The notes: generated by a model from the sequence alone, not told the origin. DNA of 52,558 nt from a virus (IMGVR_UViG_3300011115_000889:1-52558); one strand, 5' to 3'. Positions 12,878 through 29,665 are shown, numbered from the stretch's first letter. A program made the numbers and translations.

Positions 12878-12949
12878 CGAGCCACCTCAAGATAGTGCTT
12901 TTTGCAATGTATTATGCAAGAAGGTTTATTTTACTGTAAGGATGTGAAC

Positions 12950-15414: not shown

Positions 15415-16577
15415 AATCTGTTTATGTAGTCGTTCCAGTTACTAAACATCTGGCTGGTCAACATGACCAATCTAGTCATGGCAATTGGTCTGGGTCGCCA
15501 AAACTGACTATCTTAAATGAAAAAGGTAGCGAGAACGAATTTCTAAATGAAAGTTTACGAGTTGTTAGGTATGAAGAAAAAGGTAAAAACCCAGTTGACT
15601 ATGTTCTTTTTGCAGACGGAAAATACAAAATTATTGTTGCTCCAAAGCCTACTGACGGAACTAATTTTACTGGTTATCGTGGCATAGAGAGTAAAGGAGT
15701 TGGGGTTTTAATTGCCGAGGGCCCAAAAGCAAATCATTTAAGACTTACCTCTAATCTTGATAATTATTTTACTGTCAACCAAATAGCAGTTAAACCAAGT
15801 CACCAACGCAGGGGATTGGCTTCAGCAATGCTTCAATTTCACCGTGACATGTACCCAGAAGCGAACATTCAACATTCAGATGCTTTAACTGAAGATGGAA
15901 AATCATGGGCAACTGTAGTTAAACATCTTGCAGGTCAACATGACCAATCAACTCACGGTAATTGGGCTGGTGCCGAAGGTTACAAATCTGCTTCATTAGA
16001 TGACTTACCAGCCCTAGACCTTAGCAGACTTGATTCAACAACAATGGATGCTCGTAACAATTATGTTGGTTTTGGGTATCAATGGATGAATGATTATCTT
16101 CGTAGTGGCAACATTGATGATACGGTTAGAATAATTTACAACGAACAAATCCCTAAAGAACAAGGAATTGCTCAAATTGAATCCTTAAAAAATGCTTTGT
16201 ATGAAACAGAAACAACACAAGATTTAACAGTTACTAGATGGAGTTCTGGAGCAAGTCTTTTTAGGCAACAAGTTTCTACAATGTCTGAAGAAGACATTAA
16301 AGGGCTTGTAGGTAAAACTTTTGAAGCAAAAGGTTTTACATCAACTTCTGCCCCAAATAGTTTGCATCAAAGTGTTAATGATTCCTTCAAAGCGTCTGCA
16401 ACGGTTTTTGCAAACATTCACATGCCAGCAGGTACGCACGGGGCAACTATGGGTAACGATGAAGAGGGCGAGTTCGTTATTGCCCCAAATACTACTTTTG
16501 TGGTTATGGGAGCAAAAAGGTTGGATGAAACTAGGATTGTGTTAGACCTTTTAGTGACGGGACAGGAAAATGGATAG
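15411..16577 (+). CDS. tagged polyprotein: GNAT acetyltransferase + VIP2-type ADP-ribosyltransferase
   Basis: 2 tags; IAVKPSHQRRGLASAML; Y..MNDYLR, VTR, GFTSTS, EEGEF. Confidence 0.85.
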   Translation: MKSVYVVVPVTKHLAGQHDQSSHGNWSGSPKLTILNEKGSENEFLNESLRVVRYEEKGKNPVDYVLFADGKYKIIVAPKPTDGTNFTGYRGIESKGVGVLIAEGPKANHLRLTSNLDNYFTVNQIAVKPSHQRRGLASAMLQFHRDMYPEANIQHSDALTEDGKSWATVVKHLAGQHDQSTHGNWAGAEGYKSASLDDLPALDLSRLDSTTMDARNNYVGFGYQWMNDYLRSGNIDDTVRIIYNEQIPKEQGIAQIESLKNALYETETTQDLTVTRWSSGASLFRQQVSTMSEEDIKGLVGKTFEAKGFTSTSAPNSLHQSVNDSFKASATVFANIHMPAGTHGATMGNDEEGEFVIAPNTTFVVMGAKRLDETRIVLDLLVTGQENG

Positions 16578-18492
16578 ATTTACTGATTCGTTCTTGTCTG
16601 AAGTTAAGGGTGATGAGGCTTTACGCCACCGTTTACGGGCAGAGGTTATTCTTGGGCGTTCTCTTTTAGTAAAGCATTTGGCAGGTCAACATGACCAGAG
16701 TTCGCACGGCAACTGGGCTGATGGTGATGGTTCAAAAGAAATAAGTATTGAGCAACTTGCATCTATCATTAATGCAAATAAACCATACGACAGTCTTGAT
16801 GTTTGGCGTAAAACTTTGCAAGATGTTTTAAAAGCCACGGGTAAAACTGGTAAACCTACTTTTGGTGACACTTCACAGGGTATGGAGTTGTGGCGAAGTT
16901 TTGAGCAAGGTTCTGCCTATGACTTAGAAACCGAAGATGAAATTAGTTTGTCTGCTGAAGATAAAATTAAACAATTTATGGCTTCTGAGTTGCCTTACAT
17001 TTCTATGGGTAGAAACGGTATTGGTCTTTATGGTGCCCACACTAAAAGTGAGGCTGTGACATGGAGTCGTGGAAACTTTGGTCAAATAGTAAAAATGGCT
17101 TTGAAGCCTGATGCAAAAATTTTAACTATTCCTTCTTCTGATGCAAATGTAGGTTTTGTTCTTGCAAATGCTGATTTTTTGGCACCTAGAATTGGTTTAC
17201 CAAATAAAACGGCATCTTTGTCAGACTTTAAAACAAGTTGGTTTTTTACCGACAAATCATCAATTGTGAATCTTATGGCTTTAGCAATGGGTTATGACGC
17301 AATTAATTTTAATCCTAGCATTTATTATCCAAATGGTGCTTTGCCTGACCGTGAAATTGTTGTGTTAAATGCTGGTGCTTTAATTGTTCAAAAACCTGAC
17401 ACAGTTAAAAAACATTATTTAGGTCAACATGACCAATCCACGCACGGTAACTGGGCACACGGAGCAGTTAACGATTTTGCTGAAACCACAACTTTTAAAA
17501 ATGCTGTCAAAAAATTGGCTAAAACTTATGCTGACAAAATAGACACCACTTCAGGTCAGTATGGTGGTAGTCGTTCAGAAGACAGATTAGTTCAAATTCT
17601 TCATGGCGATGCTTTTGCTAGTTCTGCTCTTGGAAAACAGTTACAACAGCAAGTTAAAGACGCTTATCCTCGCGATGCTGTTTTTCTTAAAACTGGTGGA
17701 ATTTTTAATAACTCTTTTCAAGGAGTTATTAATCCTAATTTTGTAACTGGCAAAGATTATCCTGTTGTGATGTATGAAGCGTTGCTTCGTAGGGTGTCTG
17801 ATGAAGTTGTTAAACAAGCCACTTTTGCCAAATTTGATGCTTCTGAGTTGCTTTATCAAAGTTTTATTGCCGATGATTTAAAAGCCTTGCAAAAAGATGG
17901 AAAAGTTTGTCAGGCAATGGACGAAAAATCGTTTACTGATTTGTTGAAAAGTGACGACCCAAGGTTTAAGACACAATTTGAAACAGGAAAAAGCAATGGT
18001 GCCTACAGCAAAATTGGTCGTATGGCTGGTGAGTTGCGTTCTCAAAGCATGCCTATGTCGGAACCTGTTTCCAAACGACCTATTTATGGCTATGTGGCTG
18101 AAAATGATTTTGATGAAAGCATTTTGATTGATGGACCTGAACAGTATGGTGGTATTCGGGTTGTGTTTAAAGATGATGTTAAAACTCGTACAACAATGTC
18201 GGTTGGGGATTCGTTGTCAACTGGTTGTGTCCCTATTTCTATGACTCAAAGTGAAATTACTCCTTTTGATGCTTGGCGAGCGTCTGACAGAATTTTGTAC
18301 AGCACGGCAAGGGATGAGGGTTGGAATAATGACACTTATGACATTGGGTATCTTAATGAGGGTAGTTATTTTGAATCTCAAATCCATGATGGTGTTAAGT
18401 TGAGCGATGTTGAGGCTATTTACATTCCTTCGGATAGTTTTGATGACATTAGTCCCCTTGTTCCCAAGGGAATTAGGGTGGTAGAGTATTAA
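16570..18492 (+). CDS. tagged polyprotein: ART-like domain + DUF3626-like domain
   Basis: 2 tags; GIGLYG..GYDAI..EIVVLN; RFKTQFETG.SNG, RPIYGY, QYG, GDS, YFESQIH. Confidence 0.75.
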   Translation: MDRFTDSFLSEVKGDEALRHRLRAEVILGRSLLVKHLAGQHDQSSHGNWADGDGSKEISIEQLASIINANKPYDSLDVWRKTLQDVLKATGKTGKPTFGDTSQGMELWRSFEQGSAYDLETEDEISLSAEDKIKQFMASELPYISMGRNGIGLYGAHTKSEAVTWSRGNFGQIVKMALKPDAKILTIPSSDANVGFVLANADFLAPRIGLPNKTASLSDFKTSWFFTDKSSIVNLMALAMGYDAINFNPSIYYPNGALPDREIVVLNAGALIVQKPDTVKKHYLGQHDQSTHGNWAHGAVNDFAETTTFKNAVKKLAKTYADKIDTTSGQYGGSRSEDRLVQILHGDAFASSALGKQLQQQVKDAYPRDAVFLKTGGIFNNSFQGVINPNFVTGKDYPVVMYEALLRRVSDEVVKQATFAKFDASELLYQSFIADDLKALQKDGKVCQAMDEKSFTDLLKSDDPRFKTQFETGKSNGAYSKIGRMAGELRSQSMPMSEPVSKRPIYGYVAENDFDESILIDGPEQYGGIRVVFKDDVKTRTTMSVGDSLSTGCVPISMTQSEITPFDAWRASDRILYSTARDEGWNNDTYDIGYLNEGSYFESQIHDGVKLSDVEAIYIPSDSFDDISPLVPKGIRVVEY

Positions 18493-18494
18493 TC

Positions 18495-19478
18495 ATGGAA
18501 CTAACCAAAGGTAGTGTTTACGCTGTAAGGGCTGACGGAGCCGAGTTAATTTTTGATTCCGTTGACGCTGACGGTTATCCATACGGCTATTTACGCCAAA
18601 ACAATGGCAAAACCAGCACTATTGGTTTATTTGATAAGTGGCAAAAGGTTGGCAATTGGACAGTTGTTCAGGCTTTCACCAAACACCTAGCAGGGCAACA
18701 TGACCAAAGTTCACACGGTAACTGGGCTAAAGTAAAAACGAGTGTTAGGCATGCTTTTGGCGTAAACGACCTTGTGCTGGAAAACGCTGATGTTCATGAA
18801 TCAAAAATTAACGGTTCAACTTTTGCAACTTATTTTGATAACAGGGACAACATTACTGAAGACCAAAAACGGGATGTGTTGGCTTTAGTTCACGATTTGC
18901 AAACAATTGCACCGCTATCACCTATGTCTGAGGTAAAAATTGTTATTAGTAATAGTGCCCTTTTTGATAACGAATTTGAACGCGGTTGGACTATTAATTT
19001 TTCTGAGCCAGAACGAATGGTATCAAGATTTGACGAAACAGTTGGCAGAACTGTTAGGGAAATGAAAAAACCTGCTATTCACCAAGTTATTATTGCGGTT
19101 CGCCCCGAAGACATGAATCATTATGCTGATGAAGATACTGCTCGCCAGAGTTGGATGCCTTCGGCAGGGGCTAAACAATTTTTTGCTATGGAATACTTTT
19201 TGGCTCACGAATGGGGTCACGCAACTGATTATGATGCACTATTTCATAAAGGTGGTGACGGAACAATGTCGGGAAGTGGTTACAAAGATGAAAAAACTAC
19301 AGGTTTGATGTTGATGGCTCACGAAGACCAGTTAAGTCCGTATGGTAAAACCGATACTGGCGAGGGTTATGCTGAAGCGTTTGCTGAATGGTTTATGACC
19401 GATGGTAAGTCTGAGATTCCTATCGTTAAGGCTTTGGCTAAAGAACATAATTGGGGTATGCAGTACAAATGGAAGTAG
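18495..19478 (+). CDS. tagged zincin metallopeptidase with N-terminal ~60-aa partner domain
   Basis: 1 tag; HEWGH, LSPYG..EGYAEAFAEW. Confidence 0.8.
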   Translation: MELTKGSVYAVRADGAELIFDSVDADGYPYGYLRQNNGKTSTIGLFDKWQKVGNWTVVQAFTKHLAGQHDQSSHGNWAKVKTSVRHAFGVNDLVLENADVHESKINGSTFATYFDNRDNITEDQKRDVLALVHDLQTIAPLSPMSEVKIVISNSALFDNEFERGWTINFSEPERMVSRFDETVGRTVREMKKPAIHQVIIAVRPEDMNHYADEDTARQSWMPSAGAKQFFAMEYFLAHEWGHATDYDALFHKGGDGTMSGSGYKDEKTTGLMLMAHEDQLSPYGKTDTGEGYAEAFAEWFMTDGKSEIPIVKALAKEHNWGMQYKWK

Positions 19479-19487
19479 TGATTTAGT

Positions 19488-21560
19488 ATGTTGCAGAGTC
19501 CCCCAATGATTTCGGGTCAAAAAATTAGTTGTACTTTTGGCTTAGATAAATCTGTTGAAAAACATTTACAAGGCCAGCACAATCAGTCAACTCACGGTTC
19601 TTGGGCTGACCACGCATGGGGTAATCGTTTTGAACCTGTTGCTGGTTGGAAACCATCAGATGATAAATCGCAGTATTTAACTTTTGAGTCCACTATCCGT
19701 GGTGTAAGAATTACAGCAAATTTTAAATCTTTACAGGATTTCAAAGTATCAAAAGAAAATGATGCAGAAATTCAAAAGTATGTAAATGCTGTTTTGTTAC
19801 AAGTAAATGAGTTGGCTGAACATGCTCCTTTGCCAAAAAATACTGTGCTTAGAATTTTTGTTGGTGATGAGGCTTTAGCGACTGCTCCTACAGCAAGCGG
19901 TGAACCAGTTCCAGTAGGAGTAGCAGGGTTGCATCGTGGTGGCTGGGATACGGTAGCCAACAAGTCAGGTTCGTTAATTTATGTTGCTTCTACTGAATTT
20001 TTTGATAAACCAGATTTTAGCAAAAGACCAACAGACAGTTTTATGCCATCTATGCAAAATGTTGAGTACAAAGGACAATACTGGTTGGCTCATGAGTACG
20101 GTCATGCTAAACAAATGCGAATAAATCAAACTAACAATGATGTTGACACAGCCAATACTTATGCACTTTGGCAAAGATGCAAACTTGATTTAAGCACTTA
20201 TGGGCAAAAAAATTCTCATGAAGGTTTTGCGGAAGCGTTTTCTGATTGGTTTTTGAGTAAAGGTAAAAGCGATAATCCAGCAACTTATCTTTATGCTTAC
20301 GAAGGTCAATGGGCTTTTGACCGACAACCTGAATACGGTCAAAATGAAGTGTTAAAAAGCAAAACCAATAAAGACAATACTGTTTACACAATTGAAAACA
20401 TTTGTGATTTTGGTGAAGGTTTAAATAAACCTATTGCTAAATCGGTGTTTATTGTTCCCCCGTTAAGTTTTGTTAAACATTTAGCAGGGCAACATGACCA
20501 AAGTTCACACGGTAACTGGGCAGATGGCGGACCTGTTGCTGAAGGTGAGTACGGTCAATGGGGTGCTGAACGCCAACGCATGATTTTGAGCATGAAAGAT
20601 AAGGGCCCAAACATGTCGTGGTTGAATCGAATTAAAGAGTTATCAGATGCTTCTGTTGAAATTGGGGATAGGGCTAGGGATTGGGTTGATGGTAAAAATA
20701 ACGCTTATTGGAAACTTCAGTTATTAAATTATTTGGATGTTCGTGCTGTTGAACATCAAGGGGATTCGTCACTTATTGAAGAGTTTACAGATAATTTTTA
20801 TCAAAGAAACGCTGGAAGAATTTTATTAGATGCTGGTGACGAGTTTGCAAGCGGATTAAAACGAACCCTTAAAGAAATTTATAACATGGATTACAATTAC
20901 ATTAATGGTAAAAGACAAGACGAAACCATTAAAAGCAGGATTTTAGATGTTGAAGTTAATTTAGATGAGGGCACTATTAATGTAGAGGGTGGTGTTTACA
21001 ATCAATTTGATGACCAAATTGGTGAATTTGAAAGAACACTTAACACGACCACTGGAGTTGTTTCACATGATGTTTTAAACATTTGGGATTCTGATTATAA
21101 CAATACTGGGTTTGGAACTGTTTTTATTACTCAATCCGAAAACTATTACATCAGTCACGGTTTCAATGCTATTACTTTAGATACGGCTTGGAATGGTGCT
21201 TATACATGGGCAAAAATGGGCTACGATTGGTCGGGAAATCATCCGCAGGATTGGCGAGATGTCAGAAAAAACTTAACTGACCGTTTAACTCTTATTCCAG
21301 ATGAGCCAGAAAATAAACCAATTAGGGACGACATTCAAACTATGATTACTCGGTTGTATGGGGATTCTTTGGCTTCAGATTTCCCAACTCCGTATGACAT
21401 TGCAATGGTTGGCTACGGCGATGGAACAAATGGGTTGGGCGGAAAAGATTTGACCATGTGGCTTGGCAAAAGCATTTTATCAAATCAAAGATACCATTAC
21501 AAAAAGAAGTTAAATGTTGCACCTCGGCAAATCATAAGTAAGGGAATTGATAATGAATAG
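19488..21560 (+). CDS. tagged polyprotein: zincin peptidase + GNAT-like domain
   Basis: 2 tags; HEYGH, LSTYG..EGFAEAF; YNNTGFGT, GAYTWAKMGYDW. Confidence 0.75.
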   Translation: MLQSPPMISGQKISCTFGLDKSVEKHLQGQHNQSTHGSWADHAWGNRFEPVAGWKPSDDKSQYLTFESTIRGVRITANFKSLQDFKVSKENDAEIQKYVNAVLLQVNELAEHAPLPKNTVLRIFVGDEALATAPTASGEPVPVGVAGLHRGGWDTVANKSGSLIYVASTEFFDKPDFSKRPTDSFMPSMQNVEYKGQYWLAHEYGHAKQMRINQTNNDVDTANTYALWQRCKLDLSTYGQKNSHEGFAEAFSDWFLSKGKSDNPATYLYAYEGQWAFDRQPEYGQNEVLKSKTNKDNTVYTIENICDFGEGLNKPIAKSVFIVPPLSFVKHLAGQHDQSSHGNWADGGPVAEGEYGQWGAERQRMILSMKDKGPNMSWLNRIKELSDASVEIGDRARDWVDGKNNAYWKLQLLNYLDVRAVEHQGDSSLIEEFTDNFYQRNAGRILLDAGDEFASGLKRTLKEIYNMDYNYINGKRQDETIKSRILDVEVNLDEGTINVEGGVYNQFDDQIGEFERTLNTTTGVVSHDVLNIWDSDYNNTGFGTVFITQSENYYISHGFNAITLDTAWNGAYTWAKMGYDWSGNHPQDWRDVRKNLTDRLTLIPDEPENKPIRDDIQTMITRLYGDSLASDFPTPYDIAMVGYGDGTNGLGGKDLTMWLGKSILSNQRYHYKKKLNVAPRQIISKGIDNE

Positions 21561-21786
21561 AGATACAAAAATGGCAACCATGAGTTCCGTTTATGATGCT
21601 TGGGTTTCAAAGTACAAAAATGTTGCTAGTTTTAATCCCGAAAACCCCACTTCTGAACAATCTTTAGATTTTCATGAAATGTGTTCTGAAGCAGTTGGTG
21701 GTAAAAAACTTACTGCTTATCCACCTGAACTTATGGACAATCTTATGAAATTGCCTTTCTATAGCATTGACCCTGCCGATAATTAA
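21547..21786 (+). CDS. small protein, candidate partner/immunity protein for the upstream GNAT-like domain
   Basis: 79-aa ORF overlapping the upstream stop; no tag. Confidence 0.6.
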   Translation: MIMNRDTKMATMSSVYDAWVSKYKNVASFNPENPTSEQSLDFHEMCSEAVGGKKLTAYPPELMDNLMKLPFYSIDPADN

Positions 21787-21848
21787 GCGAGTTGCCCTTT
21801 TGAGGTATTACCTTTGGGGTATTCTTGATTAGTTGTTGAGGAGGTTTT

Positions 21849-22589
21849 GTGTCACGCATTGCACGGCTCGCTAAATTTATTGGGCTTGTTGAGTCTTCTG
21901 ATGCTGTCCTGATTAAACATCTTGCTGGTCAACATGACCAATCTACCCATGGCAACTGGGCTGAAGATGCATTTGATGATTTAGCAACTTGGGCTGAAAC
22001 TGCCGACAGTGAAATTGCTACAGATTACGATAAAAGAGATGCAGTATGGAATAGAACCCTGCGACAACAAGTTAAAAACGGGTTTTCTGCTAAAACACAT
22101 CCTGAATTTTTGCCAGCAATTGAACTTTATCTTAGTGAAGACGGTTACGAAATTAATAAATTGTTGCGTACTGGTTTTGTTCGTGACTTTGTAACATTGA
22201 GTTTTAACGATGCTATTGATGGTCTTGACACCGCAATTGATGAGGCTCCACCATTAGAAAAACCTGTCATTGCCTATCGTGGAGTTAAAGGTGCTGGTCT
22301 TGATTTTTTTGAAAATTTAAAAATTGGTGATTCTTTTGAAGACAAAGGTTATGCATCAACAACTTTAAGTGCTACAACCGCAAGTGAAGATTTTGCTGGG
22401 GCTGATTATGGTGACGGAATGGTATTACAAATGCATTTACCAGAAGGAACTCAGTGTCTTTTTCCGTCTGAATTTGTTGGCGATGATGGTTTTACATGGT
22501 CTGAAAGAGAATTATTGTTGCCTAGAGATTCTATTTTCAAAGTAACTAACATTCGTGGTCGTATCATAGACATGGAAGTTGAGCAATGA
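21849..22589 (+). CDS. tagged VIP2-type ADP-ribosyltransferase
   Basis: 1 tag; YEINKLLR, AYRG, GYASTT, ERELLL (R-S-E). Confidence 0.88.
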   Translation: MSRIARLAKFIGLVESSDAVLIKHLAGQHDQSTHGNWAEDAFDDLATWAETADSEIATDYDKRDAVWNRTLRQQVKNGFSAKTHPEFLPAIELYLSEDGYEINKLLRTGFVRDFVTLSFNDAIDGLDTAIDEAPPLEKPVIAYRGVKGAGLDFFENLKIGDSFEDKGYASTTLSATTASEDFAGADYGDGMVLQMHLPEGTQCLFPSEFVGDDGFTWSERELLLPRDSIFKVTNIRGRIIDMEVEQ

Positions 22590-24727
22590 AAAATAAATTT
22601 TATTATGATTCACCCCAAGGTTTATCACTTGTAGTTTCTAAACACCTTCAAGGGCAACACGACCAAGCCACTCACGGTAACTGGGCTGGGCATCATGGGC
22701 AAGCAGTTGACCGTAAAAATACTGCCCAAGGCAATCCTTATCCTCATCCAATTCAAACCGCTTACGACAATGTTGTGGCTGGAAAAGAAGGAATTGTTAG
22801 CCCAATTGACGCTCCTGCATGGTTGGATGCTATGGCTGACCGTACCGATAATCCTGATTTAACTAATTTGGAAATCCTTGGTACGCAGTATTTTACTAAA
22901 GATAATTTGGGCATTATGCGTGACCACATGCCTCAGATTCCTCCTGATACTCAAGAGGCTTTTATTAAGGCTATGCAGGCCCGTGGTGTCCGAGTTGATT
23001 TGGTTGATGTTACGCCTTTTGGTTTGCATCCGATTCAGGCTGAAATTTCGGCTACTAAATCTGGAAAAATTTTTCGGAAAATGAAAAAAGAAGGAGTTGA
23101 CGATACTCCTATTGTTGTTTCTAGTGATGATTTTGTGATTGATGGGCATCATCGTTGGGCCGCTGGACTTTTCCTTGGTTTGTCCCCTAAGCATAGAAAC
23201 ATTAAATTAAAGGCTTTGCGTGTTGACATGCCACAGGAGCAGTTGCTGGATGTGGTTTTGGCGTGGAATAAGGCTGTGGGTATTTCCTCTATTGCTTTGG
23301 GTGCTGATGTAAAAGATTCTATGAAAAAGATGTTGGCGTTTGACATTGCGGTGTTAAAAGGTAAGATTAAATCAACCGAGGTTGAGAAACATCTTCAAGG
23401 TCAACACGACCAGTCAACTCACGGACGCAGGTTCAACACCGAAGTTGCACCAGAAGTCGTTCATGATGTGCTGGCTCAAGTAGCCGAAAACGGTGGATTA
23501 TCAATCAAGTTAACAGACGGCTCACTACCTCCTGACGGCTACATGGTGTCAAGGAATAGTGAAAAGTTTGGCACTGTTGTCATGGCATCGGATTTCTTTA
23601 ACGAGAAAAAAGGAGCCAAGATTCTGGGTGCGTTTTTGATTAAGAACAAGGCAGAGTTGGGTTCTGGTAGGGCTTATCTTGGTGTGTGGCATGAAACATC
23701 TAAGACGGTTAATGGTGTAACGGTTGAGATACCAAAAGACCAGCAACGAGTTCATTTGGATGTTACAGACAAAATTGTTAGCAAGAAGCAAGCAGTTTCG
23801 TTGGGTAGAAGGCGTAACCAAATTAGTATTTGGGATGTCGTAAACTTTGACGAGATTCAAACAGGAGGTACTGGTGGAACAGTCGAAAAAGGAAATTATA
23901 AACATAGCCTCATCCCCGAAACCGTTGAATCAGATGACGGACGAGGAAATTATGGATTGGGCGGAAAAGATTTACGGGAAGTTACCGAAGCCTCAGTAAT
24001 TGTTCAGGTTCCTGTTAGTTCTTTTTTTACTAAACACCTTCAAGGGCAACATGACCAAAGTTCACATGGTTCGTGGGCTGGTGGTTCCAAAATCCCAATG
24101 GTTGATGAGTTTGCTGATGCTTGGATAGGTGGAACAGACAAGTATCCATTTGCTTATCTTGATGAAATTCGTGGTGCTTACAGGGTATTAACAGATGTTG
24201 CAGATAATTTTTATCCAAAAATGGATGAAAATGGCAGGGTGCAACCAAATTATAAAGAAGTTTTTGATTCAACTAAACAAATTCTTTTAGCCTTGGCAGA
24301 TGCTAAACCATTGAGTGAAACAATGTATAGGGGTTTATCTTTAAGTCAATTTGATTCTGGGCATGTTGAAAAATTGACAACTGTTGGTTCTACATTTAAA
24401 GAAGACCTTGCATCTTGGACTCCTGATGAAGGATTGGCAAAAACTTTTTCGCAAGAACGCTATGGTAGAAAAGCGGAAACATCTATTTTGATAAAAATTG
24501 ATGGGTTGCGTGGGATACCTTTGACTCCTCATACAAGCAATAAAAGCGAAGAAGTGTTAAGTGGCAAAGAAGTCATTGCTTCTGGTTCATACACAGTTTC
24601 TAAAGTTATAAAAACTAGCAATAATTCTTATGAAGTGACAGTGATTCAAAATCAGTTGCCCTATGACCCATTGGTTGTTGCGTCTAAAAATTTCAATACA
24701 GAAGAAGAGGGCGTTTTCATAAGATGA
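22586..24727 (+). CDS. tagged polyprotein: ParB/Srx-like + unknown domain + ADP-ribosyltransferase
   Basis: 3 tags; PIVVSSDDFVIDGHHRWAA; YLGVWH..HLDV..NQISIWD; MYRGL, LASWT, KEVI. Confidence 0.78.
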   Translation: MKNKFYYDSPQGLSLVVSKHLQGQHDQATHGNWAGHHGQAVDRKNTAQGNPYPHPIQTAYDNVVAGKEGIVSPIDAPAWLDAMADRTDNPDLTNLEILGTQYFTKDNLGIMRDHMPQIPPDTQEAFIKAMQARGVRVDLVDVTPFGLHPIQAEISATKSGKIFRKMKKEGVDDTPIVVSSDDFVIDGHHRWAAGLFLGLSPKHRNIKLKALRVDMPQEQLLDVVLAWNKAVGISSIALGADVKDSMKKMLAFDIAVLKGKIKSTEVEKHLQGQHDQSTHGRRFNTEVAPEVVHDVLAQVAENGGLSIKLTDGSLPPDGYMVSRNSEKFGTVVMASDFFNEKKGAKILGAFLIKNKAELGSGRAYLGVWHETSKTVNGVTVEIPKDQQRVHLDVTDKIVSKKQAVSLGRRRNQISIWDVVNFDEIQTGGTGGTVEKGNYKHSLIPETVESDDGRGNYGLGGKDLREVTEASVIVQVPVSSFFTKHLQGQHDQSSHGSWAGGSKIPMVDEFADAWIGGTDKYPFAYLDEIRGAYRVLTDVADNFYPKMDENGRVQPNYKEVFDSTKQILLALADAKPLSETMYRGLSLSQFDSGHVEKLTTVGSTFKEDLASWTPDEGLAKTFSQERYGRKAETSILIKIDGLRGIPLTPHTSNKSEEVLSGKEVIASGSYTVSKVIKTSNNSYEVTVIQNQLPYDPLVVASKNFNTEEEGVFIR

Positions 24728-25422
24728 GTGGATTAAAAGAAAGAATGTTTTTGTCTTTAATAGATGAAGAAAACGATGATGTAACTAAACATCTTGAGGG
24801 CAAACATGACCAGAGTTCACATGGTAATTGGGCTAAAAATAACGGGGTTATTCATAAACCAAATAATTTGAGTGGTGTAGCAATACCTTGGAAAACCAGT
24901 ACAGATTGGAGCGATGTTGTTCCAACGGGTGCCCCTGATGATAAACAAATTGAGTTTGGGGCAGGGTTAACTTTAGATTCTGCACCATTAGCATCAGTTG
25001 GACAAGGGAAAATTTTTACTGATAGTCAAGAAATTTCAAATTATGTTGACGGGGTTTTTGCTAAATACGGTTACGGTGACAGGGTTTGGAAATTGTATCC
25101 TGACGAAGCAAATCAATACTTGGTTGATGGTATTGAGGCTGGAGTTACCCGTGGCGATGCTCCAGAAGGTCATGTTTTGCATGGTGGGAACATTCCTGTA
25201 TTAATTTACAAACCTTCGGGTGTTAGCCAGTTCGTTTTGTTGCATGAAATTTCTCACATTCTTGAAGGCAACTGGACAGAGGGCAATGTGAATCATGGTG
25301 GTCACAATTTGCCGTTTTTGGAAACTTGGAAATACCTTTTACGCAATGAAGGCTTGGACAAACAGGCTAATGTTTTGGATTTGTTTACTTACAAAACCGA
25401 TGGCAATGGGGTGTTTTCATGA
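24724..25422 (+). CDS. tagged SprT-like metallopeptidase
   Basis: 1 tag; LLHEISH...GHNLPF. Confidence 0.75.
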   Translation: MSGLKERMFLSLIDEENDDVTKHLEGKHDQSSHGNWAKNNGVIHKPNNLSGVAIPWKTSTDWSDVVPTGAPDDKQIEFGAGLTLDSAPLASVGQGKIFTDSQEISNYVDGVFAKYGYGDRVWKLYPDEANQYLVDGIEAGVTRGDAPEGHVLHGGNIPVLIYKPSGVSQFVLLHEISHILEGNWTEGNVNHGGHNLPFLETWKYLLRNEGLDKQANVLDLFTYKTDGNGVFS

Positions 25423-26261
25423 TTTTAGATGAAGTAACTTTTGATGTGGTGTACCCAGATTTGGGTGTTAAGCATGGTGTCAGAGTTGAAAAGCATTTGC
25501 AAGGCAAGCATGACCAATCCAGCCATGGCAGTTGGGCACAAGGTACGCATTTAAATGCGGTCAAAGGTGGGCACAGTTTAACTACTAGGGAAATGCTGGA
25601 GTTACGAAAAAATACTTATGACCCATTGCAAAATAAACTTTATTATGCTGAAAGTTTGTTAAAAGAAAAAGTAATGGGTAAAGACCATTACGATGAATTA
25701 GAAAAAAATCAACCACAAGCACCACAAAGTAGTGATTTTGAATCACGGGACGATTATGTAAAAGCGTTTAAAGATTACAAAAAAGCCCACACTGTTTGGG
25801 CTAGAGAAATACATAAATTTGTTGTTTCGGATTTAGGTAAAGAAAATTTGAATGGCACTTTATCTGGAGTTAAAAAATACATTAATGCTGTTATTTATGA
25901 CCCTTGGTTTGTTGAAAATTTTGGTGACGGAAAACAGTTAAGAAGTAAGTTGGAAATTAAATTAAGTAATTCAATGACTTTGGCTGGGTCGTATTCTTAT
26001 GGTGTGATTGTTAGCCGCATTACTGGCATTGAAAAAACTTCAAGCGAGTTTAAGTTAGATACGCATTATACTTTTAGTGAAAACACTATTTTGCATGAGA
26101 TTGCTCACTATGCCACGGCTATTAGTGAGGATACTCCTCATGCGTCCCACGGTGTTGAGTTTGCCCAAAATCTTGTAACGCTTGCTGACCATTATTGGGG
26201 TGCAGAGTTGGGTGCTAGTTTGCGTAATTTTTATGTTCAAGAAGGTGTTTTAAATGGATAA
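25419..26261 (+). CDS. tagged SprT-like metallopeptidase
   Basis: 1 tag; TILHEIAH...SHGVEF. Confidence 0.78.
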   Translation: MILDEVTFDVVYPDLGVKHGVRVEKHLQGKHDQSSHGSWAQGTHLNAVKGGHSLTTREMLELRKNTYDPLQNKLYYAESLLKEKVMGKDHYDELEKNQPQAPQSSDFESRDDYVKAFKDYKKAHTVWAREIHKFVVSDLGKENLNGTLSGVKKYINAVIYDPWFVENFGDGKQLRSKLEIKLSNSMTLAGSYSYGVIVSRITGIEKTSSEFKLDTHYTFSENTILHEIAHYATAISEDTPHASHGVEFAQNLVTLADHYWGAELGASLRNFYVQEGVLNG

Positions 26262-26358
26262 TTATTTAATCGTTTCTAACATTGACCCTATTGACCCTGA
26301 TTGCATTCCTGAGCGAATAAAACTTGAAGAATTGCCTGAGCCGAGAAAACCAGAATAG
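26254..26358 (+). CDS. 34-aa acidic peptide (MDNYLIVSNIDPIDPDCIPE...), candidate peptidase inhibitor
   Basis: Hand translation; overlaps the upstream stop, GAAGG RBS. Confidence 0.5.
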   Translation: MDNYLIVSNIDPIDPDCIPERIKLEELPEPRKPE

Positions 26359-26395
26359 TTAATTTTGTTTGCTATTCTGTCGGGGAGGAGTTCAA

Positions 26396-28402
26396 ATGTC
26401 ATTTGATTTAACAAATTTAAGTAATGCTAATTTGGAGGCATTGCATAAGTCTTTGCATGCTGATGTTTCTGACCCTGTAAAAGTTCAAGCCCATCACCTT
26501 GTCACAACCGAGTTGCTGGTTCGTGGTTTAGACCATGGACATAATGGCGATGAGTGGAATCGTGCCGTTATTGAAATTGGTGTTGAAAATGATGTGCCTG
26601 TTAATAAGGCGTTTGATGGCATTCCTTCTGATGTGGTTGATACGGTCAATGTTGAGTTGGGTTATCCTGAATCTGTTTCTAAAACCACTATTTTGACTGT
26701 TGATGGTTACACCTTAAAGTTTGATACTTTCAAAAAAGATGGTGAACCTGAAGATAGATTGAACCCTACTCAATCTGCTGTGTATGAGTTTTTGGAATCT
26801 TTAACGGAAACTGTTGGCAAATTTAACCAGAGTTCGGATGCTAACGGGGCACATTACATGGAAGAAAACCCGTTTGTTGACGAAGGTTTGATGTGTGCTA
26901 ATTGCGTCTTTTTTCAAGGCGGTGGCGGTTGTGAAATCGTTGAGGGTCAGATTGACCACATGGCTTTGTGTAAGTTTTGGATTATTCCTGAAAACCTTTT
27001 AAATGGAATGTCCAAGCATCTTCAGGGTCAGCATGACCAGAGAAGTCATGGTCTTTGGTCACATACTACCTCTTCTGTTAGTGCATCTGATTTGAACAAA
27101 ATTGGTTTGTTTATGAATAAACGCACTATGCGTTTGAATTACAATGAAGGTTATGACGCTGGTGCTGAGTTAATACGCACTAATCCTGATGCTCAAAAAT
27201 TGCCAGAAGTTTTGGCTCGCCATAACGATTTGCATGCAACATTAACTAAGTTCAAAACAAGCACTGATGAATTATTTAATGTGCATGTTTCTGAAGCCAT
27301 TATTACTGATGCAGGTTTTTTTGATGGCTTGAATGGAAATAAGCGTCAGTTCCGCCGTCTTTTGGTTGACCCACTTCCTTGGGTAAATGGGATTCCTTTG
27401 ATGAAACATCTTTCTGGTCAACACGACCAGTCCAGTCACGGCTCTTGGGCTAAGGGCAATTTATCAACCCACGACTGGGGTTATGGAAGTGACCGTCCTG
27501 AAGTTTTAAGTAAACCGCAATCAATTGAAGTTGGTGGCGAAACTATTACTGCTTCAAGTTCTGGTTTGTGGCATTATTTGATGAGCGATGGTCGTGGTGG
27601 TTGGGAGTTAACTCCTGAACGCAAAGAATTTCATGATAAACTTATTGCAGAGGCTTTAGATGGAGTTCCTAAATCTTCTGACCCTACTTTTACTATGATG
27701 GGTGGCGGTGGTGGTTCTGGTAAAGGAACCGTTCAGAAAAAACCTCAAACAGTTAAATTGGCTAAAGATGCTGGAGTTCCTTTGCCTCCTGAAGGCATGG
27801 CTGTAAAAATTGATGCTGACGAAATTAAAGCAAAATTACCAGATTTTAAAGTTTATTTGGATGCTGGCAGAAAAGCAGATGTGGCTGGTTGGACACATGA
27901 AGAATCTTCAATTATTGGTAAAGCAATTCAAGCGGCCGCTATTAAGGCTGGTAAAGATGTTTTCTTGGATGGTACTGGTAATTCAAGTGCAAGTAGTTTA
28001 AATAAAAAAATTACTCAAGCCCGTGATGCTGGTTACAAAGTTAATGGTTGTTATGTAAGTGCAAGTATTGATTTGGCTTGGAAACAAAACATGCAAAGGT
28101 CTGTAGAAGACCCTAATCGTGGTCTTGTTCCTGCCCCTAATTTCTTAAATAATCACAAATCGGTTTCAGCAATTATTCCTCAAATGGCTAGTCAGTTTGA
28201 TAATTTTGTGCTGTTTGATACTAATCATGATACTCGCGTTGAGGGTGCCCCTGCTGAACTAATTGCAACTGCTTCCCGTGGTGGTAGAATAAACATTGTT
28301 AATAGTTCTTTGTGGAAAACATTTATTAACAAAGCAAGTGATAAAACAACTGTTCAAGATTTGGATGCTCGGTATGTTCAATTTCAGAAAGGGAATAAAT
28401 AA
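26396..28402 (+). CDS. polyprotein: His-rich N-domain + HiPIP-like 4-Cys domain + tagged unknown domain + tagged zeta-toxin P-loop kinase
   Basis: Start after GGAGGAG; CANC..CEIV.G.I..LCKFW; 2 tags; MGGGGGSGKGT, IDADEIK, HEES, DGT. Confidence 0.8.
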   Translation: MSFDLTNLSNANLEALHKSLHADVSDPVKVQAHHLVTTELLVRGLDHGHNGDEWNRAVIEIGVENDVPVNKAFDGIPSDVVDTVNVELGYPESVSKTTILTVDGYTLKFDTFKKDGEPEDRLNPTQSAVYEFLESLTETVGKFNQSSDANGAHYMEENPFVDEGLMCANCVFFQGGGGCEIVEGQIDHMALCKFWIIPENLLNGMSKHLQGQHDQRSHGLWSHTTSSVSASDLNKIGLFMNKRTMRLNYNEGYDAGAELIRTNPDAQKLPEVLARHNDLHATLTKFKTSTDELFNVHVSEAIITDAGFFDGLNGNKRQFRRLLVDPLPWVNGIPLMKHLSGQHDQSSHGSWAKGNLSTHDWGYGSDRPEVLSKPQSIEVGGETITASSSGLWHYLMSDGRGGWELTPERKEFHDKLIAEALDGVPKSSDPTFTMMGGGGGSGKGTVQKKPQTVKLAKDAGVPLPPEGMAVKIDADEIKAKLPDFKVYLDAGRKADVAGWTHEESSIIGKAIQAAAIKAGKDVFLDGTGNSSASSLNKKITQARDAGYKVNGCYVSASIDLAWKQNMQRSVEDPNRGLVPAPNFLNNHKSVSAIIPQMASQFDNFVLFDTNHDTRVEGAPAELIATASRGGRINIVNSSLWKTFINKASDKTTVQDLDARYVQFQKGNK

Positions 28403-29181
28403 TGGATAGTCGTATTCTTGAACTGATGTCGCAAGATGTTCAGGCTGGCGTAACAGAAAATGACAGTATTTATGTTACTGATGCTGAATCTAGTGAAGCG
28501 TGGAAAAGTTTAGAATCCATCTATCAAAATCTAAAAAATTCAAACATTGTTATGGCGATTCCTGCGGAATGGGATAATGCTGATTATGACCTTGACATGC
28601 TTTACGGTAAAGGATTTTTAGATAAGTATGCAGACACAGAATCAGTTGAAAAAATGTCTTTGGTTTCCAAGGCTGTTAGTGAAGACCGATACACCCTAGG
28701 TCCAATGTATGTTCCTGACCGTGTTGATGCTCATGGTGAGTGGACAAGTTCTGAAGAGTTGCAAAAATCGGTTTGGGATTATGTTCGTAAAGATGACCGC
28801 CGTATCCGTTTACAGCACAATAAAGATGTTGTGGCTGGTGAATGGGTTGAAGTCATGGCTTGGCCTTACGAAGTTTCAGTTCCTATGCAAAAGTCTGATG
28901 GTTCTATGGAAGATGTTACTTTCCCAAAGGACACTGTTTTCCTTGGTGTTGTTTGGGAACCTTGGGCTTGGGAAATGGTGAAGGCTGGCAAGTTGTTGGG
29001 TTATTCCATTGGTGGTCGTGCCCAGCGTCTTGAAGTTGATTTACCAGTTGCTAAAGAAGATGGTTCATCTACCGTGTCGGGTCCTACAGTGAACACTGTT
29101 CATGTGGATACTGTTATGGGTGGGCAGAAAAAGAAGCCCAAAAAAGATGTAAAGGTGACTGACAAAGATGTTTCTGACTAG
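28402..29181 (+). CDS. XkdF-like prohead serine protease with ~85-aa N-terminal extension
   Basis: RYTLGPMYVPDRVDAHGEW, RLQH, W..VKAGKLLGYSIGG. Confidence 0.85.
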   Translation: MDSRILELMSQDVQAGVTENDSIYVTDAESSEAWKSLESIYQNLKNSNIVMAIPAEWDNADYDLDMLYGKGFLDKYADTESVEKMSLVSKAVSEDRYTLGPMYVPDRVDAHGEWTSSEELQKSVWDYVRKDDRRIRLQHNKDVVAGEWVEVMAWPYEVSVPMQKSDGSMEDVTFPKDTVFLGVVWEPWAWEMVKAGKLLGYSIGGRAQRLEVDLPVAKEDGSSTVSGPTVNTVHVDTVMGGQKKKPKKDVKVTDKDVSD

Positions 29182-29665
29182 CGATAGTGATTATGTTCCT
29201 TTTGGTTCTGTAAATAAGTCTGTGGCTGATGTTGCGTCACTTTTGCGTACCACTTTGTCTGATGTTGTAACTTTTTACAATCGTGCCCATGGGTTTCATT
29301 GGAATGTTAAGGGTTCTGATTTTGCTCAGTATCATGAACTTTTTGAATCCATTTACGAAGATGTTTACAGTTCAATTGACCCTCTTGCTGAAAACATGTT
29401 AAAACTTGGCGTGGATGCCCCATTTAAGTTGTCTGATTTTATTGCTTACCGAACTTTGCCAGAAACCACTATTGGTTCTGCTGATGACCCCCGTTCTATG
29501 GCATCAGATTTGCAGAAGGCAAACCTTCAACTGATTAACACATTAAACATGGCTTTCACTTCTGCAAACTCGTCTAATGAGCAGGGTGTGGCTAATTTTC
29601 TTGCTGAACGCATTGACATGCACAAAAAGTGGGATTGGCAACTTCGTTCAAGTTTGGGGATGTAA
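29168..29665 (+). CDS. dps: Dps / mini-ferritin
   Basis: AHGFHWNVKG..F..YHELFE.IY..D.LAE...HKKW.W.L ferroxidase residues. Confidence 0.93.
   Translation: MFLTSDSDYVPFGSVNKSVADVASLLRTTLSDVVTFYNRAHGFHWNVKGSDFAQYHELFESIYEDVYSSIDPLAENMLKLGVDAPFKLSDFIAYRTLPETTIGSADDPRSMASDLQKANLQLINTLNMAFTSANSSNEQGVANFLAERIDMHKKWDWQLRSSLGM

What the first reader, a model, noticed from the sequence alone, without database searches (positions are those of the whole stretch)
16570..28660. Gene boundaries are offset: each ORF's pre-tag leader looks like the partner of the previous effector
Seen: leaders before the first tag seem to depend on the upstream cargo. After the three R-S-E ARTs come short leaders with a basic residue followed by Phe (MDRFTDS, MKNKFYYDS, MSGLKERMF). 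After several peptidases come short Cys-containing or acidic peptides (KISCTFG, ENICDFG, DPIDPDCIPE at 26254, and MILDEVTFDVV). A ~60-aa domain follows DUF3626, a free 79-aa ORF follows the GNAT-like domain, and an ~85-aa acidic segment following the zeta kinase is fused to the protease. Inference: the mobile unit is tag-effector-stop-partner, and the partner becomes fused to whichever tag follows. These would be new immunity or inhibitor peptides (Arg substrate mimics for ARTs, Cys-switch for zincins, an epsilon-like antitoxin), removed by the protease at maturation.
Basis: inference. Interest (0 to 1): 0.75.

Follow-up and report, generated by a model that had tools for sequence, protein, structure and literature searches.

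The report
Phage cargo cassettes with trailing partner peptides
An uncultured phage carries, between its portal and head-protease genes, a string of swappable toxin-like enzyme cassettes separated by a repeated 20-residue tag, and each enzyme that ends in a stop codon drags along its own short peptide that gets translated as the start of whatever gene comes next, probably as its personal inhibitor.

Summary
The window is a whole 52.6-kb phage contig. Between portal/MuF and an XkdF-type prohead protease lie 11 ORFs carrying 15 copies of a tag, [VLI]xKHLxGQHDQxxHGxWA.

The same tag, plus a shorter form, occurs 552 times in the window and 109 uncultured viral loci. It has no match in 50,697 GenBank phage records or in the papers searched.

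Across 134 boundaries in 31 leader families, 28 families have a single upstream domain family and only 11 a single downstream one. Same-leader pairs: same upstream/different downstream 207, the reverse 5. DNA homology blocks run tag to tag, and their order is shuffled between phages.

Leaders are under purifying selection (dN/dS 0.04-0.46). The same partner families also occur as free small ORFs or as the protease N-terminus, always behind the same effector.

One pair was modelled: the SopF/DUF3626-like domain with its 60-aa leader. The score was 0.66 against a best control of 0.00, and the interface covers 13 of 27 invariant residues.

So the unit "tag-effector-stop-partner" is supported, and an inhibitor role is plausible but not shown. 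The specific sub-claims fail or stay open: Arg mimic, Cys switch, epsilon homology. This is a new variant of phage toxin-immunity and cargo systems.

The parts
12902..14401 (+). Mu-type portal protein
   Evidence: Pfam Portal_Mu E=4.6e-40
14410..15414 (+). MuF-like minor head protein. Its stop overlaps the first cargo ORF by 4 nt.
   Evidence: Pfam Phage_Mu_F E=1.4e-9; architecture
15411..16577 (+). Cargo ORF A: 8-aa minimal leader, tag, small GNAT-like piece, tag, ADP-ribosyltransferase (cluster 0), stop
   Evidence: Tags at 15447 and 15924; ADPrib_exo_Tox E=3.5e-12, weak GNAT hits
16570..16662 (+). 31-aa leader MDRFTDSFLSEV... of ORF B (16570-18492). It is cognate to the upstream ART.
   Evidence: Leaders of this family (L36) follow ART cluster 0 in 5 of 5 cases, with 2 kinds of downstream piece. 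They carry the [RK]F motif. Leader dN/dS is 0.16.
17461..18489 (+). SopF/DUF3626-like effector piece, the end of ORF B
   Evidence: Pfam DUF3626 E=0.004, below the curated cut-off. The family profile hits PDB 7dn8/7dn9 at E=1e-4. This family is the terminal piece of its ORF in 33 of 36 occurrences.
18495..18671 (+). 59-aa small leader domain of ORF C (18495-19478), placed before its tag; predicted partner of the SopF-like piece
   Evidence: Follows cluster 8 in 19 of 19 cases, either fused or free. Complex model scores 0.66, 0.50 and 0.66, against a best control of 0.00.
19488..19550 (+). 21-aa leader MLQSPPMISGQKISCTFGLDK of ORF D (19488-21560). It equals the C-terminal tail of the preceding zincin, cut off by two in-frame stops (19479-19484).
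   Evidence: In-frame TAG TGA. It aligns with the tail of inter-tag zincin pieces such as 19611-20465, which contains ENICDFG.
20526..21557 (+). Helical N-terminal part plus GNAT-like effector piece, the end of ORF D
   Evidence: AF2 model pLDDT 86.6. The best 30 Foldseek matches listed are mostly GNAT acetyltransferases, with a few malonyl-CoA decarboxylase and isocitrate lyase chains, at E 4e-3 to 3e-2.
21547..21786 (+). Free small acidic ORF, 79 aa from TTG. The likely start is ATG 21553, which overlaps the upstream stop. Cognate to the GNAT-like piece.
   Evidence: Cluster 3 pieces are followed by a free 46-79-aa ORF in 37 of 38 cases. It aligns with that small-ORF family.
21849..22589 (+). 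ORF F, start of the second translational block: 19-aa leader, tag, ART
   Evidence: Strong SD GAGGAGG; ADPrib_exo_Tox E=1.7e-16. Its leader family L44 is not tied to one upstream family.
22586..24727 (+). ORF G: 15-aa ART-cognate leader MKNKFYYDSPQGLSL, tag, ParB-like piece, tag, unknown piece, tag, ART-like piece
   Evidence: Tags at 22643, 23390 and 24035; phrog_2859 and ParB-like phrog; leader motif
24724..25422 (+). ORF H: 18-aa leader MSGLKERMFLSLIDEEND, tag, HEISH zincin
   Evidence: The leader family has 2 members, both after cluster 70.
25419..26261 (+). ORF I: 21-aa leader MILDEVTFDVV..., tag, SprT-like HEIAH zincin
   Evidence: Leader family L45 follows cluster 32 in 4 of 4 cases, with 3 kinds of downstream piece. 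Leader dN/dS is 0.04. SprT-like E=1.9e-4.
26254..26358 (+). Free 34-aa ORF MDNYLIVSNIDPIDPDCIPE..., homologue of the proline-rich leaders that follow this zincin family elsewhere
   Evidence: Alignment. Cluster 10 is followed by this leader family in 17 of 33 cases and by the free form in 3 of 33.
26396..28402 (+). ORF J, third translational block (ORF listing start is 26369): conserved ~205-aa N-terminal domain, tag, 110-aa piece, tag, zeta-toxin kinase
   Evidence: SD GGGAGGAG before ATG 26396; Zeta_toxin E=1.3e-19; tags at 27017 and 27407
28402..28662 (+). Acidic helical N-terminal extension of the prohead protease, cognate to the upstream zeta kinase
   Evidence: The extension type matches the upstream family in 26 of 26 proteases and cuts across the protease-core tree. 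In the AF2 model, helices 3-14 and 28-46 are confident.
28657..29181 (+). XkdF-type prohead serine protease core
   Evidence: Peptidase_S78_2 E=7.9e-12, residues 86-211
15438..27457 (+). Span holding the 15 tag copies [VLI]xKHLxGQHDQxxHGxWA. The first His codons are at 15447, 15924, 16675, 17413, 18684, 19563, 20478, 21918, 22643, 23390, 24035, 24790, 25494, 27017 and 27407.
   Evidence: Regex scan of six frames; all copies are on the + strand. Column profile over 316 copies.

Best explanation
The region is the virion-cargo part of a phage head module. It is an array of effector cassettes delimited by a conserved ~20-residue tag, and related phages exchange cassettes with breakpoints inside the tags.

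Some effector families end their ORF with a stop codon: ADP-ribosyltransferases, a SopF/DUF3626-like domain, a GNAT-like domain, several zincins, a zeta kinase. In these, the 3' end of the cassette encodes a family-specific peptide or small domain of 13 to about 90 aa.

Translational coupling expresses that segment in one of three forms: as the N-terminal leader of the next tagged ORF, as the N-terminal extension of the prohead protease, or as a free small ORF.

I think these segments most likely bind their own effector and keep it inactive in the producing cell. Processing at the tag by the XkdF-type protease inside the prohead would then separate them. The inhibition and the processing are both inferred.

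Shown: the architecture, the co-segregation, the purifying selection, and the interchangeability of fused and free forms. Supported by a model for one pair: binding over the invariant surface. Not shown: inhibition, cleavage at tags, packaging.
For: - Head-module context: portal, MuF, XkdF-type protease, scaffold region and capsid protein.
- The window has 15 tags. The window plus 109 loci have 552 tags, and in each locus all tags found by the stricter pattern lie on one strand.
- Leader families have one upstream family in 28 of 31 cases, against one downstream family in 11 of 31. Same-leader pairs: 207 same upstream/different downstream, against 5 the other way.
- Homology blocks run tag to tag and are reordered between the window and L103, L001 and L023. 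Of 94 HSP ends, 61 lie within 40 nt of a tag, against 8.8 expected.
- Leader dN/dS is 0.04-0.46. For 12 of the 13 upstream domain sets it is 0.11-0.39; the 13th (family L22) gave 1.24.
- Relatives of cluster 9 and of the ARTs that run straight into the next tag, with no stop, lack the peptide altogether.
- The minimal leader after MuF has a median of 9 aa (n=38). After terminal effectors the median is 31 aa (n=181).
- Partner families are kept even when nothing is fused to them: the free 58-66-aa form after cluster 8 (5 of 5), a free ORF after the GNAT-like family (37 of 38), the 34-aa ORF in the window, and a free 75-aa type-B form in L007.
- The protease N-terminus type matches the upstream effector in 26 of 26 cases, while cutting across the protease-core tree.
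- Complex model of the SopF-like piece with the 60-aa leader: 0.66, 0.50, 0.66, best of 3 controls 0.00. That mark was reached by 58 of 80 solved complexes and 2 of 110 mismatched pairs.
- Of the 28 interface residues, 13 are among the 27 invariant or nearly invariant columns. Expected 2.2, hypergeometric p=3.5e-9.
Against: - Tag-to-tag exchange by itself predicts that anything between two tags co-segregates. The main statistic therefore does not require a partner function.
- Binding was modelled for only one pair.
- In that job the runs agree in at least 0% of their contacts, so the poses may differ. Partner pLDDT is at least 79. My own alignments were used, so the calibration holds only roughly.
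- Models tend to dock partners on conserved patches.
- The ART leaders are only 13-16 aa, barely longer than the minimal leader.
- The zincin 'leader' at 19488 is simply the tail of an inter-tag piece cut off by two in-frame stops, and the same tail is in cis in other copies.
- No partner matches a known immunity or antitoxin family.
- The dN/dS values pool non-independent pairs, and dS is near saturation in some sets.
- Nothing here shows that tags are cleaved or that the proteins are packaged.
Confidence: 0.5

Rival explanations
1. Passive linkage. The leader is just a re-initiation stub and linker needed to put a start codon in front of the next tag. It has no interaction with the effector.
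For: - HSP ends cluster at tags.
- Internal junctions overlap or abut stop codons and have weak Shine-Dalgarno sites. This fits termination-reinitiation.
- The zincin leader at 19488 is an ex-tail separated by two in-frame stops.
- ART leaders are short, 13-16 aa.
Against: - Leaders evolve under purifying selection about as strong as that on most of the upstream enzyme sets compared.
- A stub of about 8 aa suffices after MuF, yet terminal effectors carry 13-90 aa.
- Partners persist as free ORFs where no tag follows.
- Relatives without a stop lack the peptide.
- The modelled interface lies on invariant residues.
Confidence: 0.2
2. Tether or assembly helper. The peptide binds its effector, but in order to re-link separately translated cargo proteins. 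Each effector would be tied to the next tagged protein, and the last one to the protease. The purpose would be co-packaging in fixed proportions or folding, not inhibition.
For: - The partners are usually fused to the next cargo's tag, or to the prohead protease itself.
- Binding is supported for one pair.
- The array as a whole looks like a polyvalent protein broken into coupled ORFs.
Against: - Free forms (34, 58-66, 75 and 46-79 aa) are not fused to anything, yet are conserved behind the same effectors.
- Each effector already has its own tag.
- The predicted interface covers the invariant, presumably catalytic, surface. That suits an inhibitor better than a handle.
Confidence: 0.2
3. The ORF breaks are not real. 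The array is read as one polyprotein through recoding, or the stops are assembly errors, so the 'leaders' are ordinary inter-domain linkers.
For: Some junctions are in frame: a 9-nt gap at 19479-19487, and gaps of 0 or 6 nt in other loci. Inter-tag versions of the zincin exist.
Against: - The same junctions, with overlaps of -4, -8 and -1 nt, recur in many independent metagenome contigs.
- The frame offsets differ between junctions, so no single recoding rule fits.
- There is a double stop, TAG TGA, at 19479-19484.
- Domain families are strongly position-specific. For example, ARTs are the terminal piece in 72 of 77 occurrences, and cluster 1 is internal in 43 of 47.
Confidence: 0.03

Closest known systems
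MuF polymorphic toxins of temperate phages with downstream small immunity ORFs (Jamet et al. 2017, PMC5576092; passages read)
   Same: - A MuF gene lies directly after the portal gene.
- Toxin-type domains (ART, metallopeptidase) sit in the head module and are proposed to be delivered with the DNA.
- Each toxin is followed by a small ORF of no known family, proposed to be an immunity protein.
   Different: - In the window, MuF is a separate ORF.
- There are up to 15 effector pieces in 11 ORFs, not one C-terminal toxin.
- A repeated tag separates the pieces.
- The candidate partner is usually not a free ORF but the N-terminus of the next cargo protein or of the protease.
- No sign of lysogeny was seen in the ORFs scanned.
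- The tag pattern gave only 6 single hits in 185,579 prokaryote genomes.
Polyvalent proteins of phages and conjugative elements (Iyer et al. 2017, PMC5512222; passages read)
   Same: Multi-domain effector polypeptides lie beside virion genes. The domain repertoire overlaps: MuF, zincin-like metallopeptidases, ParB-like, ART. In both cases processing into units is proposed.
   Different: - The passages returned by my term search of that paper propose autoproteolysis by the metallopeptidase domain. The term 'HDQ' did not occur, and 'linker' and 'conserved motif' gave no hits.
- Here the units are separated by a defined tag and by stop codons, and each stop is followed by a cognate peptide.
- The paper's supplements were not seen and might list such a motif.
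Phage T4 internal proteins and Alt with N-terminal capsid-targeting sequences cut by the prohead protease (recalled; review listings only)
   Same: Enzymes, including an ART, are packed in the head and injected. A short N-terminal signal is removed by the head protease.
   Different: The protease family differs (XkdF/S78_2). The signal is a repeated internal tag as well as an N-proximal one. T4 has no cassette-specific peptide tied to the previous gene.
Zeta-epsilon (PezAT) toxin-antitoxin pairs (recalled)
   Same: A zeta-family kinase (Pfam E=1.3e-19) lies next to a short acidic helical segment that switches together with it.
   Different: The candidate partner lies downstream and is fused to a protease. 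It has no sequence match or fold match to epsilon or any antitoxin. Binding was not modelled.

Membership tests
MuF polymorphic toxin-immunity system | MuF-domain gene immediately downstream of the portal gene | tested here: met
   Portal_Mu at 12902-14401 and Phage_Mu_F at 14410-15414
MuF polymorphic toxin-immunity system | Toxin domain fused to the C-terminus of the MuF polypeptide | tested here: not met
   In the window the MuF ORF stops at 15414, and the first cargo ORF starts at 15411. Only 3 of 42 MuF-family pieces in the loci run into a tag in the same ORF.
MuF polymorphic toxin-immunity system | Small ORF of unknown family directly after the toxin, as candidate immunity protein | tested here: met
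   Met in altered form. Free ORFs lie at 21547-21786 and 26254-26358. Elsewhere the equivalent segment is fused to the next tag or to the protease.
MuF polymorphic toxin-immunity system | Carried by temperate phages or prophages | tested here: inconclusive
   No integrase or repressor family was found among the 20 flanking ORFs scanned. The tag pattern gave only 6 single hits in prokaryote genomes. Not all ORFs were scanned.
Polyvalent proteins | Two or more unrelated effector domains in one polypeptide, encoded beside virion genes | tested here: met
   ORFs A, B, D, G and J each hold 2-3 pieces of different families.
T4-type capsid-targeting leader | N-terminal leader removed by the prohead protease at a defined site, and needed for packaging | not testable with these tools
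   Needs virion proteomics or a cleavage assay. Only the adjacency of the protease gene is shown.
Zeta-epsilon toxin-antitoxin | Zeta-family kinase domain | tested here: met
   Zeta_toxin E=1.3e-19, residues 430-617 of ORF J
Zeta-epsilon toxin-antitoxin | Epsilon-type antitoxin (a helical bundle homologous to epsilon/PezA) encoded beside the toxin | tested here: not met
   The profile of 8 N-terminal extensions finds no antitoxin in the PDB at E<=10. The Foldseek search of the model gives no match at E<=0.001 and no antitoxin among the matches shown. The model is confident only for residues 1-46.
Cysteine-switch propeptide of zincins | Invariant Cys in the inhibitory peptide | tested here: not met
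   In leaders after the SprT-like family, the window's Cys aligns with F/L/Y in the other sequences. After the cluster-15 zincins, Cys is present only in a subgroup of close relatives.
SopF/DUF3626 family | Match to Pfam PF12294 above its curated cut-off | tested here: not met
   16.6 bits against a cut-off of 27, E=0.004. The family profile does reach PDB 7dn8/7dn9 at E=1e-4 over about 95 residues. This is a distant relationship only.
GNAT acetyltransferase fold (piece 20526-21557) | GNAT core fold | tested here: inconclusive
   No Pfam hit. The AF2 model has pLDDT 86.6. Most of the best Foldseek matches are GNATs, with rmsd 2.0-2.4 A over 82-88 columns, but E is only 4e-3 to 3e-2.

The most novel reading that the evidence does not exclude
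A maturation-armed toxin relay. Each packaged effector would be held off by its own inhibitor peptide, and that peptide is translated as the front end of the next cargo protein's capsid tag or of the prohead protease itself. The same proteolytic step that matures the capsid would then cut the inhibitors away, arming a whole swappable arsenal just before injection. The tag would serve three purposes at once: packaging or cleavage signal, recombination joint for cassette exchange, and release switch.
Probability: 0.3. Interest if true: 0.85.

Novelty: new variant of a known kind. Interest (0 to 1): 0.72.

Why it matters
If the partner peptides are inhibitors, this array holds about a dozen new small inhibitor-enzyme pairs, for ARTs, a SopF-like enzyme, a GNAT, zincins and a zeta kinase. 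It would also be a way of coupling antitoxin removal to capsid maturation.

Independently of function, the tag gives a simple handle. It can be used to find and delimit injected phage effectors in metagenomes: 552 copies were found in 109 loci plus the window. It also shows how phages shuffle such effectors as cassettes.

There is an annotation lesson too. In these arrays the first 10-90 residues of an ORF belong, in evolutionary terms, to the gene before it.

Tried and rejected
- Megablast of 12902-32123 against GenBank phages found no match.
- tblastn of ORF G found only ParB-like hits, with no tags.
- tblastn of a 23-aa tag found no match at E<=10.
- A literature search for six tag strings returned 0 papers. 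The search on XkdF, MuF and cargo returned nothing useful.
- The first clustering of pieces chained everything together, because a shorter tag form (KH[GQ]xHDQ) had been missed. I redid it with a wider tag definition.
- Many leader-to-inter-tag-piece hits came from ORFs cut by locus ends and were set aside.
- The idea that a terminal piece plus its leader always equals an interrupted inter-tag piece holds for the cluster-15 zincin only. It does not hold for cluster 9 or the ARTs.
- A uniform frameshift or readthrough was rejected, because junction offsets fall in all three frames.
- Promoter-like and terminator-like sites are not enriched: 34 found against 38 expected, and 10 against 14.
- Pfam and PHROGs left most pieces unnamed. 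I could therefore not test whether stop-terminated families are the toxic ones.
- The partners have no Pfam family, no Atlas family and no PDB sequence match.
- Epsilon-likeness of the protease N-terminus: Foldseek gave nothing at E<=0.001.
- The search of earlier findings found nothing for this genome. By sequence it returned one loosely related note on another genome.

Full report
**What the region is.** The window is a complete 52,558-base contig. Its centre is a phage head module:
- Mu-type portal, 12902-14401;
- MuF-like protein, 14410-15414;
- eleven + strand ORFs, 15411-28402;
- an XkdF-type prohead serine protease, 28402-29181, whose Pfam domain starts only at residue 86;
- a Dps/ferritin-like ORF, a probable scaffold gene, and a capsid protein with a weak match to the E-type family.

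A six-frame scan finds 15 copies of one motif, all in these ORFs and all on the + strand. Over 316 copies from related DNA, the conserved block is [VLI]-x-K-H-L-x-G-Q-H-D-Q-x-[ST]-H-G-[SN]-W-A-x-G, and conservation falls off sharply on both sides.

Between tags lie recognisable effector-type pieces:
- two ADPrib_exo_Tox ARTs;
- a zeta-toxin kinase;
- HExxH zincins, one weakly SprT-like;
- a ParB-like piece;
- a weak DUF3626 match.

The DUF3626-like family profile reaches PDB 7dn8/7dn9 at E=1e-4. DUF3626 is the domain of Salmonella SopF (PMC6682159, passages). That SopF is an ADP-ribosyltransferase is my recollection.

The piece at 20526-21557 gives a good model (pLDDT 86.6). Most of its best Foldseek matches are GNAT acetyltransferases, at weak E-values of 4e-3 to 3e-2.

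Two details were added. DPIDPDCIPE is in a free 34-aa ORF (26254-26358) that overlaps the stop of the zincin ORF. ORF J most likely starts at ATG 26396, behind GGGAGGAG.

Only 21849 and 26396 have strong Shine-Dalgarno sites. The other junctions overlap or abut stops, with overlaps of 4, 8, 1 or 14 nt or gaps of 2 or 9 nt. The array therefore reads as three translationally coupled blocks. Promoter-like and terminator-like sites are not enriched.

**Relatives.** An IUPAC pattern for the tag found 109 stretches in IMG/VR contigs, several holding 5-10 copies. In every locus, all tags found by the stricter pattern lie on one strand.

A profile search showed a second, shorter tag form, KH[GQ]xHDQxxHGxWA. 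With both forms there are 552 tags in the 109 loci plus the window.

The tag is absent elsewhere at the sensitivity used:
- the same pattern gave only six single hits in one genome for each of 185,579 prokaryote species;
- a 23-aa tag found nothing in 50,697 GenBank phage records at E<=10;
- megablast of the module found nothing there;
- six tag strings occur in none of about 8.4 million papers and preprints searched.

**The central test.** I cut every tag-bearing ORF into four kinds of piece: the leader (start to first tag), inter-tag pieces, the terminal piece, and tagless neighbours. I clustered the pieces by blastp, requiring E<1e-3 and coverage of at least 0.7 of the longer piece. I then tabulated each ORF boundary as upstream terminal piece, leader, and first downstream piece (319 boundaries).

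I removed duplicate boundaries. I then kept only leaders of at most 120 aa, adjacent genes, and pieces not cut by a locus end. This left 196 boundaries, of which 134 fall in the 31 leader families with at least two members. The results:
- 28 of 31 families have a single upstream family, and 11 of 31 a single downstream family;
- 18 have one upstream but several downstream families, and 1 the reverse;
- same-leader pairs are 207 same-upstream/different-downstream against 5 the other way;
- 186 pairs share both sides and 9 share neither;
- 130 of 134 boundaries carry the modal upstream family. In 1000 shuffles the mean was 55 and the maximum 66.

Examples:

| Leader | Follows | Count | Downstream |
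|---|---|---|---|
| 59-aa family | DUF3626-like family | 14 of 14 | at least 7 kinds |
| MDRFTDS family | ARTs | 5 of 5 | 2 kinds |
| MILDEVTFDVV family | its zincin | 4 of 4 | 3 kinds |

**Why they co-segregate.** I ran blastn of 14001-29500 against the loci. Homology blocks begin about 19 nt before one tag anchor and end about 30 nt after the next. Their order differs between the window and its closest relatives. For example, 15920-16725 and 16669-17457 lie in the opposite order in L103.

Of 94 HSP ends inside the array, not counting six cut by locus ends, 61 lie within 40 nt of a tag anchor, against 8.8 expected. The loci are related, so these ends are not independent events.

The exchange unit is therefore tag to tag. 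This alone would link a leader to the effector before it, so co-segregation is not by itself evidence of a functional pair.

The tags in the window are 65% identical on average over 60 nt. Exact shared runs of 20 nt or more occur in 5 of 105 pairs. Whether recombination is guided by the tags, or only recombinants that break in tags survive, is open.

**Evidence that the trailing segments do something.**
1. Rough Nei-Gojobori estimates give leader dN/dS of 0.04-0.46. For 12 of the 13 matching sets of upstream domains the value is 0.11-0.39; the set for leader family L22 gave 1.24. Codons overlapping the upstream ORF were skipped. Pairs are pooled and not independent, and dS is high in some sets.
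2. About 8-9 residues are enough before a tag after MuF (median 9, n=38). After terminal effectors the median is 31 (n=181).
3. Stop and peptide come together. The subfamily of cluster 9 that ends in a stop has a 38-56-aa, probably helical, leader behind it. The subfamily that runs into the next tag has no such tail. The two ARTs that run into a tag also lack the ART-type leader motif.
4. The same partner families appear in three guises behind the same effector.
   - The 60-aa family is a pre-tag leader 14 times and a free 58-66-aa ORF 5 times, always after the DUF3626-like family.
   - The window's free 34-aa ORF aligns with the proline-rich leaders (E-I-V-D-P-I-x-P-x-F-I-P-x-P-Y-E) that follow the same zincin family in other loci.
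   - The GNAT-like family is followed by a free small acidic ORF in 37 of 38 cases, and the window's 79-aa ORF is a longer member of that family.
5. The protease N-terminus behaves like a leader.
   - An acidic helical type follows the zeta kinase, and an unrelated MRYF... type follows another family (cluster 13 or, in one locus, cluster 142), with no exception in 26 proteases.
   - On a tree of 23 distinct protease cores (26 were complete at both ends), the two types are interleaved. L082 and L084 fall among L010 and L011. L027 falls with L037 and L053. Supports are 88-100, most other forks are unresolved, and one branch is long.
   - The MRYF type also occurs as a pre-tag leader (L017, L022) and as a free 75-aa ORF (L007).

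**The one binding test.** I modelled the DUF3626-like piece (17461-18489, alignment of 18 sequences) with the 59-aa leader (18495-18671, alignment of 18 sequences).
- Scores were 0.66, 0.50 and 0.66, against 0.00 for the best of three controls.
- The tool's mark was reached by 58 of 80 solved complexes and 2 of 110 mismatched pairs.
- Partner pLDDT was at least 79.
- The runs agree in at least 0% of their contacts, so the poses may differ.
- My own alignments were used, so the calibration holds only roughly.

In the best run the partner touches 28 residues of the effector. Of these, 13 are among its 27 invariant or nearly invariant positions, against 2.2 expected (p=3.5e-9). The partner's invariant G15, G53 and W55 are also in the interface.

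I know of no solved complex of this kind, so a pass from memory seems unlikely. The model supports binding but does not show it, and docking on conserved patches is a known bias.

- *Arg mimic.* In 59 unique ART-following leaders, the aromatic position is F 54 and Y 3, and the residue before it is R 32, K 21, N 6. This is a real conserved motif, roughly [SED]-[RK]-F-x-[YT]-D-S-x-x-G-L, but not an invariant Arg.
- *Cys switch.* The Cys of DPDCIPE aligns with F, L or Y in the other sequences. The KISCTFG/ENICDFG Cys is limited to a few close relatives, and other tails of that zincin family have none. The leader at 19488 is the zincin's own tail, separated by two in-frame stops.
- *Epsilon-like.* The protease extension is predicted helical, with confidence for residues 1-46 only. 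It matches no antitoxin by sequence or by fold. A functional analogy remains possible but was not modelled.
- *Removal at maturation.* Not testable here.

**Comparison with what is known.** MuF polymorphic toxins have a portal-adjacent MuF gene, a C-terminal toxin and a small downstream ORF taken as an immunity gene (PMC5576092, passages). Polyvalent proteins are multi-effector polypeptides next to virion genes, with proposed autoprocessing by a metallopeptidase domain (PMC5512222, passages). T4 packs Alt and internal proteins through a cleaved N-terminal signal (recalled; listings).

The present system shares the logic of all three. It differs in three respects:
- a repeated tag delimits shuffling cassettes;
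- the array is split into coupled ORFs;
- the candidate immunity segment is placed at the front of the next cargo protein or of the protease.

I found no description of the tag. Supplements of the two papers were closed and could list it.

It is a parallel, not the same system, and I did not test it.

**Verdict.** The 'offset unit' is supported by strong comparative evidence. The partner or inhibitor function is plausible and supported by one model, but unproven. The three mechanistic sub-claims are not supported. I rate this a new variant of a known kind, phage-delivered toxin with cognate small partner, and of high interest because of the tag-cassette design and the fusion of partners to the next module.

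Noticed in passing
29168-29665: A Dps/ferritin-like ORF (Pfam Ferritin E=3.9e-14) sits inside the head module, between the prohead protease and the probable scaffold gene. It overlaps the protease stop by 14 nt.
   Followed up: no
3264-4193 (-): A histone-deacetylase-family ORF (Hist_deacetyl E=2.8e-50) in a phage contig. Next to it, 2229-2705 (-) has a DUF732 match.
   Followed up: no
11260-12877: An ORF that reads like a cytosine-5 DNA methyltransferase (my reading of the translation; not scanned) and a SAM-methyltransferase ORF lie directly upstream of the portal. No terminase family turned up in the ORFs scanned.
   Followed up: partly
L012, L013, L039, L060 and many other loci: A shorter tag form, KH[GQ]xHDQxxHGxWA, lacks two residues of the window's form. 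It dominates a second group of loci, and some ORFs mix both forms.
   Followed up: partly
L013:7545-8645: In some relatives the XkdF protease domain lies behind a tag in the same ORF as a ~200-aa piece (Peptidase_S78_2 at residues 210-331). There the protease itself is a tagged module.
   Followed up: no
26396-27004: The ~205-aa N-terminal domain of ORF J carries a four-Cys stretch (CANC...C...C). It is conserved in 42 loci as the start of the last cargo ORF and matches the N-terminus of phrog_2859. Its upstream neighbours vary, so it is not a partner-type leader.
   Followed up: partly
23390-23440: One tag copy is degenerate after H-G: it reads HGRRF instead of HGxWA.
   Followed up: no
21849-21905 and homologues: Block-initial leaders (VSRIARLAKFIG..., MSRSNRFARLVAI...) form their own conserved basic family. 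They lie behind strong ribosome-binding sites and are not tied to one upstream effector.
   Followed up: partly
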